Origin: Opitutales bacterium
Lineage (GTDB): Bacteria > Verrucomicrobiota > Verrucomicrobiia > Opitutales > UBA2987
Assembly: GCA_965226885.1 (NCBI GenBank)
Contig: CBDDEL010000013.1
Location: forward strand, 288,001 to 352,000
Length of the DNA: 64,000 nucleotides
Direction of reading: 5' to 3'
Made by a program: the position numbers. Numbering within the stretch: the stretch's first letter is position 1; the number at the start of each line of letters is the position of its first letter. Shown in pieces: positions 36,001 through 42,000 of the stretch.

Positions 36001-39000
36001 GCAGGTAAACGCGCTTGAACATGATGGCCTGAACTTCACCCTTTATTTCTTTGGGCAGATGATCGGCCATCTTGGCGTGATTTGCGCAAAGAAGCCGCAC
36101 CCTGGCCGTCAAACTATTCTGGTCGAGGAGAGAACGTGCCCCGGCCAGCGCTTTTTGCTGAATATCGAAGCCGAAAACGTGGCCTTTGGGGCCAACGCAT
36201 CGGGCTAAAAACTCCGTATCGTGCCCGTTGCCGACGGTTGCGTCGATGGCGGCATCGCCCTGGCCAAGAACCGCGGCCACTTTTTCCTGGGCCCATTTGA
36301 CGGGATGAGGGCGAACTTCGATTCGATCACTCCGGCCTGAATTCCCAGCGCTTTTTTTCTTCGTTCCAATGTTGGAGCGAGTCCGCCTCGATGTATTCGT
36401 AATTGCCGGTGTCGAGGTTGAAGGCTTTGACTGAATCCTGGTTCATTTCCCTAATTTTTTCCTGCCGGGCCTGCAGGTTGCTTTCCTTGACTTTTGCGAT
36501 ATAATCCTCAAATCCGGTGATCTCGCCGGAAACGACTGAGCCCACTGGCGATTCCTGAACTCCCTCCGCCACCGGCTGGAGGGGGGAACTGTCGGGGGTT
36601 TGGCAACCGGTCCACAAAATAAGACTCATTGCCAGGCAGGATAAATTAATAAGAACTCGGTTCATCTTGATTTTAAAATGACAGTATTCGAAAGGTTTCG
36701 CAACCTCAATTGGGGCAATTTTTCCGTTTGCCTGTTATTTTTTTCAAATTTCGTCGAAGGCTTCGGCATCAAGCTCAAACTGGCCCACTTTTGTAGCCGG
36801 GCCTGACATGGTAATTTCATAGTCGTGGCCGATCCGAATCTTCAGTTTTCCTCCAGGCATGTGGACGGTGAGGTTAGAATCGACGGCACCCATCTTTCGC
36901 GCCACGGCAGCGGCTGCGCTACTGCTGCTGCCCGAAGCAAGGGTGTAGCCGGCCCCGCGTTCCCAGATTTCGAGCTGAATATTGGTTCGATCCAGAATTT
37001 TCAATAACTGGACATTGGTTCTGTTGGGAAACAGCTCGTGTTTTTCCAGAATCGGTCCTAATTCGCGGGCCAAGGCGCTGGAAATATCATCCAGAGGGAG
37101 AACGCAATGCGGGTTCCCGATGGTGGCGGCATAAAAATTGTATTCACGGCCATTGATTTCGACGGATTCTGCCAGAACTTCCCGTTTCGGCCCTTCGACG
37201 GGAATGGTTTCGCTGTCAAAGGACACTTTGCCCATGGCAATCACTATTTTGCGGGCGCCAGGGCCAACTTCGCAGGTGACGACGCCTCCCGCCGTTGAAA
37301 TGGTAAAAGGTTTTTCCGAAACCCGATGACAATCCCAAAGATAGCGGGAAAAAATTCTCAGGCCATTGCCGCTTTTTTCCGCTTCTCCACCGTCGGGATT
37401 AAAGATGCGCAAACCGAAATCGGCCTCAGAGGAGGGCAGGGGCCCAAACAGGATGCCGTCCGAGCCGAGCCCGAAATTGCGGTGGCAAATGAGACGGATT
37501 TGAGCCGCCGTTAATTCCCCATCGACCTCCTCCGGGTTCAGAACCAGGTAGTCGTTGCCCAAGGCGTGGTATTTTTGAAATTTCATCGGAATTTGAAAAC
37601 GGATTTTGGGATGAATCTATGGAATTGTGATGCAAAAGTCACGAATCTAGTTTAACTTTGAGAATATGGGTGAAACTGGCAGTGGCGATGAGCTTCCCTT
37701 CAATGAAACGATCTGCGGTCTCTGGATAAGCGAGAGTGGGGAGGCCTGCCTTTCCCTCCTCGACCATAAAAATGGCCGCCGGGAAATTAAGCATCCTTTC
37801 ATTCCCTTTGCCTGGGCCAACGATCTTCCGCAAACGGCTATTTTTAGGGAAGAAACTCTTTCCGGCGATGCCCCCTATCGTTTCCTGCTACATTTCGATG
37901 ATCTCCAAAGCTACCGCGATTTGTTCAAAAACCGACCGGAAAATATCTTCGTGGAGAATGTCAGGGCGTTGGAAAGCCAGTTCCTGCTGCGCTATCAAAA
38001 ACGTCTATACGAGAACCTTCCCTTCAGCCGGTTGCGCCGTTGCCAATGCGATATTGAGACGGCTTGCAGCGTGCCGGGCGGTTTCAGCAATGCCGGCCGG
38101 AAAGAGGATCGTGTGCTTGCCATAGGGCTATCCTTCTCTGGGGAAAGCGAACCGGTTTTTCTGGTTCTGGAGGAAATGAACGATGCCGCCGAGCGCGACC
38201 TTCTGAAGCGGTTCAACAAAATTTTAGCGGAAAAGGACCCCGATGTCATCGAGGGGCACAACTTTTTTAATTTCGACCTGCAATACCTGCGCCGCCGTAG
38301 TTCGCGTTTCCGGCTGCCCTGCGCCTGGGGCCGTTTCGGTCAGGAAGCGCTCTTTCGCAAAAGCCGACTGCGGGTGGCGGAGCGCTGGATCGACTTCGTT
38401 CGCTGCGACATACCGGGCCGGGCGATCATCGACACTTATTTGCTTATACAGCAATTCGATGTCACCACGCGCGACATGATTTCCTATTCGCTCAAGGATG
38501 TGGCCATATATCTGGGGGTGACGCGCCCGCAATCGGAGGAGCGAACCTACCTTTCAGCGGAAGAAATCCAGCAGACGTTTTCCCAGGACCGCGAACGTTT
38601 TTTAGCCTACCTGGGGGATGATTTGAGGGAAACCGCGGGAGTGGCCGGTCTGCTTCTGCCTACTTATTTCGCCCAGACTGAAAATTTCCCCATGACCTTG
38701 CAGGAAATTACTTTGCGGGGTTCGGCCAACAAGGTGGACCTGCTCCTGCAGGAAAATTATTTCAAAGCCCGCCGGAGTCTGCCCGAATACCCGGTGGTGC
38801 GCTCATTCGAGGGAGCTTTTTCACGAAGTTTTGTCACCAGCGTTTATCGCCATGTGCTCCATTTCGATGTGGCCTCGCTTTATCCCAGCCTTCTCATGCT
38901 GATCGGCCGCAATCCTTCCTCCGACTCGCTGGGAATTTTTATTCCCTTGTTAAAAAAACTCCGCCAGGCGAGGCTCGAATTCAAGGAGCTGGCCCGCACA

Positions 39001-42000
39001 GCCCCAACCGAGGAACTGCGTATTGAGAGTCAGGCTCGGCAGACCGCCTATAAAATTCTCATCAATTCCTTTTATGGATACCTGGGATTTTCCGGAGCCC
39101 GTTTTGCGGATAGCGATTTGGCCGCTGAAGTTACCCGGCGGGGGCGGGAATTGTTGCGCGAACTGATTGCCGAATTCGAACGGCTGGACTGCACCGTGCT
39201 GGAAGCGGACACCGACGGGATTTACCTTGCTACGGATGAATACTGGGAAATTCCGAATATTCTGCTGGCTAAAATCAGCAAAATTCTGCCGGAAGGGATC
39301 GAGCTGGAATATGATGGCCGTTATGATTCCATGTTTTGTTATAAGGCGAAAAATTACGCCTTGTACGATGGCAACAAAATAACCATTCGCGGCTCCGCGC
39401 TCCGTTCCCGCGGTATCGAGCCTTACTTGAAAGAGCTTTCCCGGCAGCTGATCGGCTTCTTGTTAGGCGTGGAGGAGGAATCGCCGCTTGTTTTGGCGGA
39501 GAGATTTCGCACGGCCATCAATTCCAGGTCGATGGAGATCAACCGCCTCGCGAAATCGGAATACCTCAGCCAGAGTCCCGACAGGTATAAAGAGAAAATT
39601 GATAATGGGAGAAAGCCCCGCCGCGCCTCATTGGAAGTGGCCCTGAAAATGAACCCGCAGCCCAAAATGGGTCAGCGGGTGTCCTACTACATCCCGGTTA
39701 CGGACAAGCCGCGCCGTCCCGACTGGCAAAGAGCCCTTCCCCTGAATTCTTACGATCCTGAGAATTTTCCCTACGATCCCGCCTATTACAACAAGAAGCT
39801 GGACGCCTGGATCAAACGCTACGGCGAGCATCTCCTGGAGGAAGAGGAAAACCCGCAAGGCGAGTTGTTTTAAGCCCGCCTTGCCGCCGCCGTTTGCTTA
39901 AACGTTTGCGACGGCGGGGGAACGATTGGCCACCCAATCGATTATTTTCTGCTCATCATCCTCGTTTTCGGCAACCACCCGAAGAAATTCCGAGGCGTGA
40001 ATGTCGTTTTCCTTGAGGAAAGCGCGGTCGCCGCCACAGGAATACATTATATCCGAATGCAATTCTCCCCGCAATTTGGCCTTGGCTTTCTCGATGATGC
40101 GCGGCAGCCAGCGGATTCCCCTGGCCTCTGCATCTCGGGCCGGCAATGTTTCCGGGTCTAAAATCTCCCCGCTGGAAACTCCATTTTGCTTATCCAGAAA
40201 ATAAGAACGCCGGATGTCATGAATGAGGGCAAAAGTGGCAAAATCGGGTTCACCGCTGCTATTGAAGTCTTCCGCGAAATCGTAAATCTCCTGGGCGGTT
40301 ACTCCAATGGAGGCGATGAATTCCGCTTCCGTTTCGTTAAAATAACTGTCGGGCCTACGGTTGCCGTCAGCATAAAGCTGGACCGCCTTTCCCCAGATTT
40401 CCTGCAACTGTTTTTGATAATCGTAATTTTTCATTATAATTCTAAGACGCGAATTCTTGGGAAACCTTTCATTTCATGTCAGCCTGAAATCTATTTGCCG
40501 TTTGAATCGATCTACCTTGTGCACCACCACTTTGATTATTTGTCCGATTTTATAGGTTTTGTTTTTGCGGCGGCCGATTATCGCCGTGCGGCTGTCATTG
40601 ATCCGATAGAGATCGTCCTTTAAAGTTGAGATATGGATCATTCCAAAAGTGGTTGACTGTACCAGCTCGATGAACATGCCGTGATTTTTGACGTCTGTTA
40701 TGATAGCTTCAAAAACGGTTTTATCCGCGCGGGCGACTTCACGTTGGAAAAATTCCAGCAATTTCAGTTTTTGGGATTCGCGCTCGGCCTCCACGCTGTT
40801 GGATTCGGTCAGGGTGAGGTGCTGGGAGAGCCTTGCCGCATCGCCCGGACCATATCTTTTTGGCGGCGCCCCATCCAGTTTCGATTTGCCGGACTTGGCC
40901 AGGTGCCGTTCCAGAACGCGGTGAACGATGAGATCGGAGTAGCGCCGGATAGGTGAGGTGAAATGCAAATAGTTTTCCTTGTTGAGGCCATAGTGGCCGT
41001 CACATTGCTCTTTATAAATAGCTTTTTTCAAGCTCTTCAGGAATTGGAGTTTTAAGGTGTATTCCTGCGGATGGTTTTTGATTTGACGCAGAAATTTGCT
41101 TACTTCGCGCCGTTTGGTCAAATCGCCCACATTCAGTTGGAACCCGACCAGGTAATCGCGCAGCTCTTCCAACCGGTCCTCATCGGGTTTGTCGTGGACC
41201 CGATAAACCGTGGGCAGACCGGCCTGCCGCAGAGATTTTGCCACCGCTTCATTGGCGGCCAGCATGAATTCCTCGATTAACTGGTGGCTCTCGTCGTACT
41301 CGATTTGCTCAATGCGGTCGGCGTAGCCTTGTTCATCCACATATATTTTGATTTCCGCCATATCGAAGTCGAGGCTTCCCTTGTCCATGCGCCTCTTCCT
41401 TAGCTTGGAGGCGATAAACCAAAGCTGGTTGATATTGGTGCGCAGGCGTTCCAAATCCTCATTGGATAATTCGGACAAGGGCCTTCCCGCAGAGCCGGTC
41501 TGGTGTGCCGGGGGCACGGGAAGATTGCGGATCTTTTTATTATCAAAATCCTGCATAAAAGCGTATGCCTGAGTGTAGGTTAACCGCTTTTTGCTATGAA
41601 TAACCGAATTGGCATAACGCACATGGGCCAGCCGGCCCTTGGCGCTGAAGGTTAGAAAAGCCGTTTTCACCAGCCGGTCCGCCCCTTCCGAAAGGCTGCA
41701 CAGTCCGTTCGACAAAGCCTTCGGAATCATAGGAATAACGGTCCCAACGAGGTAGGTCGAGTTGCCCCTTTTCTGGGCCTCCTTATCGATGGCGCTGCCC
41801 GCTTTGACGTAGGCGCCGACATCGGCGATGTGCACTCCCACCACAAATTCGCCGTTTTCCTTTTTCTCGATGGAGAGGGCGTCGTCGAAATCCTTGGCAT
41901 CGTCCGGATCGATGGTAAATGTGAATTTATTCCGCAAATCGAGCCTTCCCTGCAGGTCCCGTGGGCCCACTTTTCCCGGCAATTGGTTGGCTTGGCTGTT

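What a model noticed while it worked through the whole genome (the two positions that open the first line are those of the whole stretch)
37666..39873. No DNA polymerase I: a proofreading family-B polymerase stands in strictly complementary distribution with Pol I across [...]
This genome has no family-A polymerase (Pol I) gene in any frame. It has instead a single-copy 735-aa family-B polymerase (g02185) with intact exonuclease and polymerase motifs and a C-terminal clamp-binding-like QGELF, plus a stand-alone 5'-3' exonuclease (g00225, C8:33993-34865). Across relatives the orthologue of g02185 and canonical Pol I never occur together, although each is present in about 20-48% of genomes and both states occur in different genera of one family (also in this genome's own family). 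I read this as non-orthologous displacement: the PolB does the gap-filling job of Pol I.
Evidence so far: Six-frame search with Pfam DNA_pol_A (PF00476): 0 matches in G000 and in the 3 other genus members searched; pfam.tsv has only 5_3_exonuc (g00225), DNA_pol_A_exo1 (g04404), DNA_pol_B (g02185), PolX (g03096). Opitutales, 201 genomes >=90% complete: canonical Pol I (E<=1e-148) in 40, g02185 orthologue (E<=1e-40, 41-93% identity, one copy, about 720-790 aa) in 96, both in 0, neither in 65. Phylum sample, 151 genomes: Pol I 67, PolB 67, both 0, neither 17. Chance of no overlap if independent: 6e-14 and 4e-27 by genomes, 6e-13 by genera (30 and 38 of 79; call 118). Mixed families with the two states in different genera: f1 (this genus PolB, sister genus g2 Pol I), f25, f38, f48, f55. 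With Pfam DN [...]
(Added by a program. Inside this text positions count along the whole contig: contig position 288,001 is position 1 of the stretch shown here. "Call 12" and the like, gene names such as g00115 and contig names such as C1 are that model's own, and its searches are not shown. The text may have been shortened before it was handed on; [...] marks where a part breaks off. The agent that wrote the report below was given it as the finding of a first reader that could run no searches.)

Follow-up and report, generated by a model that had tools for sequence, protein, structure and literature searches.

The report
Family-B polymerase standing in for Pol I
This bacterium has no DNA polymerase I and instead carries an intact proofreading family-B polymerase plus a separate flap nuclease, and across its phylum the two polymerases never occur together, which suggests, but does not prove, that one does the other's job.

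Summary
Window 37666-39873 (+) is one intact 735-aa family-B polymerase. All exonuclease and polymerase motifs are present, and it ends in a disordered tail carrying QGELF. The genome (96% complete) has no family-A polymerase match, one PolB, one stand-alone FEN and a PolX.

I reproduced the order counts exactly: 201 genomes, 96 PolB, 40 Pol I, 0 both, 65 neither. A phylum sample of 401 genomes gave 185, 161, 0 and 55.

An RpoB tree of 123 chosen genomes needs at least 18 changes of PolB and at least 13 of Pol I. In 18 independent contrasts, Pol I went the opposite way in about 11 and never the same way.

- **FEN:** all 68 PolB genomes tested have a stand-alone FEN.
- **Nested Pol I genera:** three Pol I genera nested among PolB genera carry a FEN-less Pol I.
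- **Controls:** Pol II, PolX and another PolA subgroup co-occur freely with either enzyme.

The protein belongs to the already described but uncharacterised G3 group, and Pol I loss in Verrucomicrobia is in print. I did not find the link between the two in print.

The evidence is correlative. Seventeen of the 19 'neither' genomes tested have a FEN and look real, among them one complete 5.1-Mb genome, so the polymerase is dispensable. Outside this phylum G3 seems to coexist with Pol I; I infer this from the paper's text and did not test it.

The parts
37666..39873 (+). Gene of a 735-aa family-B DNA polymerase of the G3 / Pol-epsilon-N-like type. It is single copy in the genome.
   Evidence: ORF. 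Pfam DNA_pol_B and DNA_pol_B_exo1. It is the only PF00136 match in G000. AlphaFold2 model with mean pLDDT 86.6. The full-length fold matches archaeal family-B polymerases at TM 0.75.
38029..38622 (+). 3'-5' proofreading exonuclease domain, with Exo I (D129, E131), Exo II (N199, D204) and Exo III (Y315, D319).
   Evidence: Pfam PF03104 covers residues 122-279. The motif residues are kept in 121-126 of 127 distinct orthologues.
38866..39816 (+). Polymerase domain. It holds motif A (D401..SLYPS), motif B (K463..NS.YG), motif C (E513-A-DTD, whose Glu is the mark of the G3/epsilon type) and KxY (K560-K562-Y564).
   Evidence: Pfam PF00136 covers residues 422-717. The motif residues are kept in 125-127 of 127 orthologues, and E513 in 126 of 127.
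39856..39870 (+). C-terminal QGELF, a beta-clamp-binding-type motif (Qxx[LM][FLW]) at the very end of a disordered tail.
   Evidence: A motif of this type lies in the last 14 residues of 111 of 126 distinct orthologues, against 2.3% of internal 14-residue windows. Residues 725-735 have pLDDT below 50. Binding itself is not shown.
37587..37665 (.). 79-bp A+T-rich spacer between the divergent dapF-like gene (36744-37586, minus strand) and the PolB start. The promoter presumably lies here.
   Evidence: Sequence. The sigma-70 consensus scan found no site in it. It has no match to the recalled verrucomicrobial LexA motif.

Best explanation
The gene encodes an active, proofreading, clamp-tethered family-B DNA polymerase of the bacterial G3 group. 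In this lineage it occupies the polymerase niche of DNA polymerase I.

**Proposed mechanism.**
1. Pol III leaves the beta clamp at the 3' end of a finished Okazaki fragment or of a repair gap.
2. The PolB docks on the clamp through its flexible C-terminal QGELF tail and fills the gap.
3. The separate FEN-type 5'-3' exonuclease (C8:34002-34508) removes the RNA primer or flap.
4. Ligase seals the nick.

This division of labour resembles clamp + PolB + Fen1 in archaea and eukaryotes more than the fused Pol I of most bacteria.

**Shown here:** an intact enzyme, vertical descent, a conserved tail motif, a separate FEN, and exclusion from Pol I.

**Inferred:** clamp binding, gap filling, and cooperation with FEN.

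The shared job is useful but not essential, as for the polymerase part of Pol I in model bacteria.
For: 1. **Exclusion.** No genome has both in 201 order genomes (96 PolB, 40 Pol I) or in 401 phylum genomes (185 PolB, 161 Pol I).
2. **Independent events.** I built an RpoB tree of 123 genomes chosen by me, one per family plus one per genus in mixed families.
   - PolB needs 24 changes (at least 18 on well-supported branches).
   - Pol I needs 19 changes (at least 13 on well-supported branches).
   - Of 18 independent pairs that differ in PolB, Pol I goes the other way in a mean of 10.6, the same way in 0, and does not differ in 7.4. Median sign-test p is 0.00098.
3. **FEN.**
   - 68 of 68 PolB genomes have exactly one FEN, in a 287-402 aa frame.
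   - 31 of 36 Pol I genomes have it fused, in 854-1086 aa frames.
4. **A swap of the polymerase alone.** G224 and G393 (family f48) and G226, G259 and G303 (f55) lie among PolB genera.
   - They have a stand-alone FEN.
   - The four whose Pol I gene I read (G224, G393, G226, G259) have a FEN-less Pol I that matches Pfam PF00476 only. G303's 715-aa Pol I frame was not scanned.
   - G224 and G259, the two scanned with NCBIfam, score over the TIGR00593 cut-off, 640.0 and 656.7 against 600, but only on model positions about 360-890.
5. **Specificity.**
   - A true Pol II (NF004421, 697 bits against cut-off 570) co-occurs with Pol I in G106.
   - PolX occurs in 27 of 68 PolB, 21 of 36 Pol I and 9 of 19 'neither' genomes.
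   - Another PolA subgroup co-occurs with the PolB.
6. **The enzyme.** Catalytic residues are kept in 121-127 of 127 orthologues. The clamp-type tail motif is kept in 111 of 126.
7. **Vertical descent.** All four well-supported PolB clades are also RpoB clades in 15 genomes.
8. **Analogy, from abstract openings in search listings only.** Thermococcus Okazaki maturation needs PolB, Fen1 and ligase (PMC4432273). The closest solved folds to this protein are those Thermococcales enzymes.
Against: - **Correlation only.** There is no functional datum.
- **'Neither' is a real state.** 17 of the 19 'neither' genomes tested keep a stand-alone FEN but have no PolB and no Pol I. The other two, G135 and G339, lack any FEN, so their Pol I is probably just unassembled.
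  - G178 is a complete one-contig 5.1-Mb genome whose sister G541 has the gene.
  - 10 of the 19 also lack PolX.
  - So Pol III alone can apparently do the job.
- **No link by gene neighbourhood.** No replication or repair gene is conserved beside the PolB in 109 loci.
- **Other family-A genes.** 8 of 96 PolB genomes (order) and 15 of 185 (phylum) also carry an atypical family-A gene.
- **Other phyla.** Timinskas 2026 (sections 18 and 23 read) says all Chlorobi have a G3 PolB, and names only Tenericutes and Verrucomicrobia as lacking Pol I. If so, G3 coexists with Pol I there and is not a general replacement. I could not test this: no genome outside the phylum was reachable.
- **Sampling.** The tree sample was picked with knowledge of the states, and it is a single-gene FastTree.
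Confidence: 0.5

Rival explanations
1. The polymerase half of Pol I is simply dispensable in this phylum. Pol III (or PolX) fills Okazaki and repair gaps, and only the FEN matters. The PolB is an optional extra, and its exclusion from Pol I reflects loose redundancy in some minor repair task rather than a take-over of lagging-strand maturation.
For: - 65 of 201 genomes (order) and 55 of 401 (phylum) have neither enzyme.
- 17 of the 19 'neither' genomes tested keep a stand-alone FEN.
- G178 is complete and lacks both, while its sister G541 has the PolB.
- 'Neither' arose at least 11 times on the tree.
- Timinskas 2026 (sections 15 and 24 read) reports that FEN, not the polymerase, is the near-universal requirement.
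Against: - Dispensability alone does not explain why no genome among 185 + 161 in the phylum sample holds both, when Pol II, PolX and other PolA genes mix freely.
- PolB is kept with intact active sites across classes by vertical descent, so it is under selection where present.
- 7 of the 19 'neither' genomes are one clade of 0.8-1.3 Mb reduced genomes.
Confidence: 0.25
2. The PolB is an accessory damage-tolerance or restart polymerase, like E. coli Pol II. Its exclusion from Pol I has an indirect cause, for example competition for the clamp or for FEN, or a shared history of a few ancient events blurred by a poorly resolved tree.
For: - It has the same domain plan and clamp-type tail as Pol II, and it is a single non-essential gene.
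- In Chlorobi the group is said to be universal while Pol I is not reported missing (Timinskas 2026, section 23; inference from text).
- Most families are uniform: only 2 of the 62 phylum families holding one of the two enzymes are mixed.
Against: - It is not a Pol II orthologue: NF004421 scores 106 bits against a cut-off of 570.
- True Pol II does coexist with Pol I in the sister genus.
- There is no LexA-type site upstream. The motif was recalled from memory, so this is weak evidence.
- At least 13-18 changes are forced by well-supported branches, and no contrast is concordant.
- The FEN-less Pol I in nested genera is hard to explain without an equivalent role.
Confidence: 0.15
3. Artefact: Pol I is present but was missed, through assembly gaps or divergent sequence, or the PolB is a contaminant or mobile-element gene.
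For: - G000 is a 17-contig draft, 96.3% complete.
- Two 'neither' genomes (G135, G339) lack any FEN, so they have probably just lost Pol I to assembly gaps.
- The window next to the gene is crowded with IS copies.
Against: - The six-frame PF00476 search found nothing even at E<=1 in G000, and nothing in the three other genomes of the genus.
- Closed one-contig genomes show the same states: G092, G196, G028 and G541 have PolB without Pol I.
- A fused FEN would betray a missed Pol I, yet the only FEN lies in a 317-aa frame.
- The PolB tree follows the RpoB tree.
- G+C around the gene is ordinary, 0.52-0.54.
Confidence: 0.03

Closest known systems
Bacterial G3 group of family-B polymerases (Kazlauskas et al. 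2020, PMC7544198; Timinskas et al. 2026, PMC12926913)
   Same: - Canonical N-terminal, exonuclease and polymerase architecture.
- Intact exonuclease and polymerase sites.
- The Glu before DTD in motif C.
- A C-terminal clamp-type motif.
- Bacterial and chromosomal.
- Opitutae sequences with the same motif strings are in their data set.
   Different: Nothing structural: this is most likely a member. What is added here is a proposed role. Both papers call the group uncharacterised. In the parts I read, neither relates it to the absence of Pol I.
DNA polymerase I (PolA1) with its fused FEN domain
   Same: The proposed job: gap filling after primer removal and in excision repair. Both have proofreading, both are non-essential, and both are partnered with a FEN-type 5'-3' nuclease.
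   Different: - An unrelated fold family (B, not A).
- No PF00476 match.
- The nuclease is a separate gene on another contig.
- It has a clamp-type tail, which the canonical Pol I plan does not include.
E. coli DNA polymerase II (G1 group)
   Same: A family-B bacterial enzyme with proofreading and a C-terminal clamp motif.
   Different: - NF004421 scores 106 bits against a cut-off of 570.
- By sequence it is nearer to the archaeal enzymes, 1e-36 against 3.5e-18.
- Pol II coexists with Pol I in this phylum (G106). This PolB never does.
Thermococcales PolB with PCNA and Fen1
   Same: - The best solved relatives by sequence and by fold (1wn7_A at 1.1e-36; 4k8x_A at TM 0.75).
- It is a dispensable second polymerase beside the main replicase.
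- It is reported to act in Okazaki maturation and repair (abstract openings in the listings).
   Different: - Only 20-23% identity.
- The host here is a bacterium with Pol III, a beta clamp and a bacterial FEN.
- Uracil sensing, inteins and PCNA motifs were not examined.

Membership tests
Family-B DNA polymerase (Pfam PF00136 + PF03104) | Scores over the curated cut-offs for the polymerase and exonuclease domains | tested here: met
   78.9 bits and 52.5 bits against a cut-off of 23 for each.
Family-B DNA polymerase (Pfam PF00136 + PF03104) | Catalytic motifs: Exo I-III, motif A (DxxSLYPS), motif B (KxxxNSxYG), motif C (DTD) and KxY | tested here: met
   All are present in the window protein, and are kept in 121-127 of 127 orthologues.
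G3 group of bacterial PolB (Kazlauskas 2020) | A conserved glutamate in motif C, shared with Pol epsilon N and B10 | tested here: met
   E513 in LEADTDG, kept in 126 of 127 orthologues. The feature is as stated in section 17 of PMC7544198.
G3 group of bacterial PolB (Kazlauskas 2020) | [quoted passage not shown] | tested here: met
   Full-length fold match to canonical family-B enzymes. The tail motif is present in 111 of 126 orthologues. Binding to the clamp was not demonstrated.
G3 group of bacterial PolB (Kazlauskas 2020) | Placement inside the G3 clade in a tree or clustering with labelled G3 sequences | not tested
   I had no sequence labelled G3. Their Table S2 lists Opitutae PolBs with the same motif strings, but only under the label 'PolBmain'.
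DNA polymerase II, E. coli type (NCBIfam NF004420-NF004422) | Score over the equivalog cut-off | tested here: not met
   The best is 106.3 bits against a cut-off of 570. The true Pol II of G106 scores 697.2 bits.
DNA polymerase I (TIGR00593 / PF00476) | A family-A polymerase domain | tested here: not met
   The gene has no PF00476 match, and the whole genome has none. The claim is 'works like', not 'is a'.
Non-orthologous gene displacement (Pol I replaced by PolB) | Complementary distribution that recurs in independent lineages | tested here: met
   No genome has both in 201 or in 401 genomes. About 11 independent opposite contrasts and 0 concordant.
Non-orthologous gene displacement (Pol I replaced by PolB) | Demonstrated functional equivalence, by complementation or biochemistry | not testable with these tools
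   This needs genetics or reconstitution.
Non-orthologous gene displacement (Pol I replaced by PolB) | Every genome holds one or the other, meaning the function is required | tested here: not met
   65 of 201 and 55 of 401 genomes have neither. 17 of the 19 tested look real.

The most novel reading that the evidence does not exclude
Across much of the Verrucomicrobiota, lagging-strand maturation and excision-repair synthesis are run by an archaeal/eukaryote-style trio: a clamp-bound proofreading family-B polymerase, a separate FEN, and ligase. This replaces Pol I. The PolB was already present in the common ancestor of several classes. PolB and Pol I behave as interchangeable cassettes that have replaced each other ten or more times, sometimes leaving a FEN-less Pol I beside the old stand-alone FEN.
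Probability: 0.4. Interest if true: 0.75.

Novelty: new variant of a known kind. Interest (0 to 1): 0.6.

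Why it matters
Pol I is treated as a near-universal bacterial enzyme: 96% of complete genomes hold a family-A polymerase (Timinskas 2026). 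The G3 family-B polymerases are the second largest bacterial PolB group and have no known function.

A clean, repeated and specific exclusion between the two gives the G3 group its first testable role. It would also show that bacteria can mature Okazaki fragments with a split polymerase-plus-FEN system like that of archaea and eukaryotes.

It bears on genome annotation, where 'DNA polymerase II' is the wrong label for these genes. It also bears on essential-gene predictions for Verrucomicrobiota.

If the rival is right, the result still matters. It would mean that large free-living bacteria do without any dedicated gap-filling polymerase.

Tried and rejected
- **Complex prediction** of the genome's DnaN (alignment of 24 rows) with PolB residues 676-735 (35 rows): 'no answer', score 0.00, controls not run. 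I draw no conclusion from it.
- **The look-up of sequencing runs:** no RNA holder was listed for the gene. There is therefore no expression evidence, and I did not use read laying.
- **Gene neighbourhood** in 109 loci: only a SirB/DUF1516-like membrane protein (68 loci), ProRS, ClpS and unnamed ORFs recur. The window's own neighbours recur in few loci: dapF in 8, DUF5069 in 20 and RNase R in 17 of 109. This gives no functional lead.
- **LexA-type site** TGTTCN4GAACA (motif recalled from memory): 12 matches with up to 2 mismatches in the window, against 25 expected by chance, and none upstream of the gene.
- **Sigma-70 scan:** nothing in the spacer.
- **Co-occurrence outside the phylum:**
  - My one genome-contig scan returned only Verrucomicrobiota.
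  - The genome search reaches no further than the phylum.
  - The Kazlauskas 2020 supplement gave sequences without G3 labels.
- **Pol I tree** of 19 verrucomicrobial sequences: the groups roughly follow taxonomy (f1 with f23; f48 with f55). Without outgroups it cannot tell vertical descent from transfer.
- **Wrong strand in the first RpoB tree.** In one search, 10 rows were translated on the wrong strand, because antisense frames were open in G+C-rich DNA. I corrected this, and only one search is used.
- **PF14792** as a PolX probe was insensitive, so I replaced it with PF14791.
- **Literature searches for a prior report** of the PolB / Pol I link found none. The searches were made, plus passages of PMC12926913, PMC7544198 and PMC10201439. 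Searches were swamped by 'Pol II' and 'polarity' hits and say little.

Full report
**1. What is in the window**

Positions 37666-39873 (+) hold one uninterrupted ORF of 735 codons with an ATG start.

*Family and closest relatives*
- Pfam finds the family-B polymerase domain (PF00136, 4.5e-22, residues 422-717) and the family-B exonuclease domain (PF03104, 5.7e-14, residues 122-279).
- No NCBIfam model reaches its cut-off. The E. coli-type Pol II model NF004421 scores 106 bits against a cut-off of 570.
- Among solved structures, the closest by sequence are the Thermococcus and Pyrococcus family-B enzymes (1wn7_A, 1.1e-36). Pol alpha follows at 1.3e-20 and E. coli Pol II at 3.5e-18.

*Structure*
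- An AlphaFold2 model built on 35 orthologues has mean pLDDT 86.6 and pTM 0.80. Only residues 1-7 and 725-735 are disordered.
- Its 50 best Foldseek matches in the PDB are all archaeal family-B polymerases, aligned over the full length (4k8x_A, E 2.1e-40, TM 0.75, 22% identity).

*Conservation*
- I aligned 127 distinct orthologues, taken from the loci.
- The catalytic residues of Exo I (D129, E131), Exo II (N199, D204), Exo III (Y315, D319), motif A (D401, SLYPS), motif B (K463, N467, S468, Y470, G471), motif C (D515, T516, D517) and KxY are kept in 121-127 sequences.
- E513, just before DTD, is kept in 126.
- That glutamate is the feature Kazlauskas et al. 2020 give as the synapomorphy of their bacterial group G3 with Pol epsilon N (section 17 of PMC7544198).

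*The tail*
- The protein ends in QGELF.
- A motif Qxx[LMF]x0-1[FLWI] lies in the last 14 residues of 111 of 126 distinct orthologues that have a stop codon. By set this is 100 of 105 in the order and 10 of 20 in other classes.
- The same pattern occurs in 2.3% of internal 14-residue windows.
- Timinskas et al. 2026 (section 18) state that G3 enzymes have conserved exonuclease and polymerase sites and a beta-clamp motif, and that they are experimentally uncharacterised.

**2. The genome**

G000 is 5.48 Mb in 17 contigs and 96.33% complete.
- A six-frame search with PF00476 finds nothing at E<=1.
- PF00136 finds only this gene.
- PF02739 finds one FEN, at C8:34002-34508, in a 317-aa open frame.
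- PF01612 finds one 217-aa frame.
- A PolX is present: PF14791, in a 577-aa frame.
- The beta clamp gene is at C6:39217-40341.

**3. Distribution**

*Order sample*
- In 201 genomes of the order, at least 90% complete, I found the orthologue in 96, canonical Pol I in 40, both in 0 and neither in 65.

*Phylum sample*
- This sample of 401 genomes shares some genomes with the order sample.
- The counts are 185, 161, 0 and 55.
- By genus they are 96 and 59 of 184, with none shared.
- Only two families are mixed, f48 and f55.

*Rows set aside from the orthologue count*
- G106 in the order sample, and G342, G471, G475, G495 and G528 in the phylum sample. Their PolB matches are weak (6.6e-21 to 6.5e-6). 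All six have canonical Pol I.
- G106's gene is a true Pol II (NF004421, 697 bits).
- G342's is a Pol II-like gene under the cut-off, without the SLYPS and DTD strings.

*Rows set aside from the Pol I count*
- 11 PF00476 matches in the order sample and 21 in the phylum sample, with E of 3.1e-84 or weaker.
- Of these, 8 (order) and 15 (phylum) lie in PolB genomes.
- The one I read, G043, is a 3'-5' exonuclease-plus-polymerase protein without FEN. It is nearest to NF011539 (452 bits, cut-off 640) and sits on a 3.4-kb contig.
- The exclusion is therefore between this PolB and Pol I orthologues, not between families B and A.

**4. Is it more than shared ancestry?**

*Sample and tree*
- I chose 125 genomes whose states I knew: one per family, and one per genus in mixed families. 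This enriches for switches and is not a random sample.
- I fetched their rpoB (TIGR02013). G016 and G504 had no match and dropped out.
- I built a FastTree of the remaining 123.
- In the first run, 10 rows had been read on the wrong strand. Only the corrected tree is used.

*Results*
- The tree needs 24 changes of PolB presence, at least 18 of them forced by well-supported branches.
- It needs 19 changes of Pol I (at least 13 forced) and 11 of 'neither'.
- Of 18 phylogenetically independent pairs that differ in PolB, Pol I differs in the opposite direction in a mean of 10.6, in the same direction in 0, and not at all in 7.4. The median sign-test p is 0.00098.
There are at least ten or so.
- In 15 genomes, the four well-supported PolB clades are all RpoB clades as well. 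The PolB therefore descends vertically and was probably present in the ancestor of several classes.

**5. The nuclease partner** (125 genomes)

- All 68 PolB genomes have exactly one FEN match, in a frame of 287-402 aa.
- 31 of 36 Pol I genomes have the FEN in the Pol I frame (854-1086 aa).
- The five others:
  - G290 and G211 are ambiguous, because the genes touch contig ends.
  - G224, G393 (f48) and G226 (f55) have a stand-alone FEN, as do G259 and G303 of the same genus as G226.
  - The Pol I genes of G224, G393, G259 and G226 (555, 557, 715 and 914 aa) match only PF00476 in Pfam.
  - G224 and G259, the two scanned with NCBIfam, pass the TIGR00593 cut-off (640.0 and 656.7 against 600), but only on model positions about 360-890.
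- These genera sit inside PolB clades on the RpoB tree. The simplest reading is that only the polymerase was exchanged, while the old separate FEN stayed.
- The sister genus of the window's genus (G015) has a full three-domain Pol I.

**6. Controls for specificity**

- PolX (PF14791 over its cut-off) is found in 27 of 68 PolB genomes, 21 of 36 Pol I genomes and 9 of 19 'neither' genomes. I counted this.
- Pol II coexists with Pol I.
- Other polymerases thus mix freely. Only this pair excludes each other.

**7. What speaks against a simple replacement**

*'Neither' is a real state*
- Of 19 such genomes in the tree sample, 17 have a stand-alone FEN.
- The two without any FEN (G135, G339) have probably lost Pol I to assembly gaps.
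- Seven form one clade of 0.8-1.3 Mb genomes. The others are scattered, with genomes of 2-5 Mb.
- G178 is a closed 5.1-Mb genome with no PolB, no PF00136 match and no PF00476 match. Its sister G541 has the gene. The DNA just beyond the G541 PolB aligns to G178 at 75-77% identity, and the PolB itself has no counterpart.
- Ten of the 19 also lack PolX.
- So the function is dispensable. This is also known for the polymerase part of Pol I in model bacteria (Timinskas 2026, sections 15 and 24).

*No other line of evidence*
- Nothing in the gene neighbourhood points to replication or repair.
- No expression data were available.
- The complex prediction gave no answer.

*Other phyla*
- Timinskas 2026 (section 23) writes that all Chlorobi have a G3 PolB, and names only Tenericutes and Verrucomicrobia as lacking Pol I.
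- By inference, G3 and Pol I coexist in Chlorobi. I could not check this, because no genome outside the phylum was within reach and the relevant supplementary sheets were not readable.

**8. What is known and what is new**

*Already known*
- The enzyme group (Kazlauskas 2020, who described G3 as new, found in eight phyla and of unknown role).
- Its clamp motif, the loss of Pol I in 'a significant fraction' of Verrucomicrobia, and the compensating stand-alone FEN (Timinskas 2026).
- That study's genome table lists only nine Verrucomicrobia genomes.

*Not found in print*
- In the sections and passages I read, I found no statement linking G3 to Pol I loss.
- A whole-word search for Verrucomicrobia, polB and polA found three papers, none of which makes the link by title or abstract.
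- Czernecki 2023 was seen only in passages.

*Added here*
- The strict, repeated and specific exclusion.
- The constant separate FEN.
- The FEN-less Pol I in nested genera.

**9. Verdict**

- The interpretation, non-orthologous displacement of the Pol I polymerase by a G3 family-B polymerase, is the best available explanation. I put it at about 0.5.
- The main rival is that the shared job is minor and dispensable.
- The gene is a new member of a known, uncharacterised family. The proposed system, clamp-bound PolB plus a separate FEN in place of Pol I, would be a new variant of bacterial lagging-strand maturation.

Noticed in passing
window 3500-35700 and 53900-54900: A dense cluster of near-identical insertion sequences. 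There are 31 direct-repeat families, with up to 6 copies at 100% identity. Several full and truncated DDE_Tnp_1_4 transposase genes are present (for example 9049-10359+, 16762-18132-, 29391-30761+), along with DDE_Tnp_1 genes (5560-7041+, 12334-13815-) and a Mu-type transposase C-terminal domain (26340-27845-). The PolB gene starts about 2 kb past the last of them.
   Followed up: partly
L311-L313 (G219, G228, G215; genus g136, family f48): In this genus the PolB orthologue is a single 665-689 aa frame. Its polymerase motifs are intact, but its exonuclease half is only 25-36% identical to the window's. Every genome of the genus listed in the phylum sample but two (G236, G308) gave two separate matches. 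The proofreading domain may be degenerate.
   Followed up: partly
G178:C1 (L257, L258), compared with G541:C1:141000-160999 (L255): G178 is a closed 5.1-Mb genome with neither PolB nor Pol I, nor any PF00136 match. Its congener G541 has the PolB. Synteny resumes right after the PolB gene, at 75-77% identity. This is a natural null that could serve as a comparison strain.
   Followed up: partly
L248 3768-5432+, L249 4393-6063+, L250 4119-6263+, L251 4435-7176-: Pol I orthologues without the FEN domain and without a recognisable 3'-5' exonuclease domain (555-914 aa), each beside a stand-alone FEN elsewhere in the genome. They occur in genera nested among PolB-bearing genera of families f48 and f55.
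   Followed up: yes
G135:C95:70931-71788, G135:C59:2211-3068, G023:C2:2289271-2290128: 339-aa open frames that match only positions 74-344 of the family-A polymerase model (E about 1e-18 to 1e-20). They occur both in a PolB genome and in a 'neither' genome. This is a short PolA-like protein of unknown nature.
   Followed up: no
window 39898-40434 (-): The 178-aa gene convergent with the PolB carries DUF5069 (E 8.4e-09). It recurs beside the PolB in 20 of 109 related loci. An RNase R-like gene (40474-42759, minus strand) follows in 17 of 109.
   Followed up: partly
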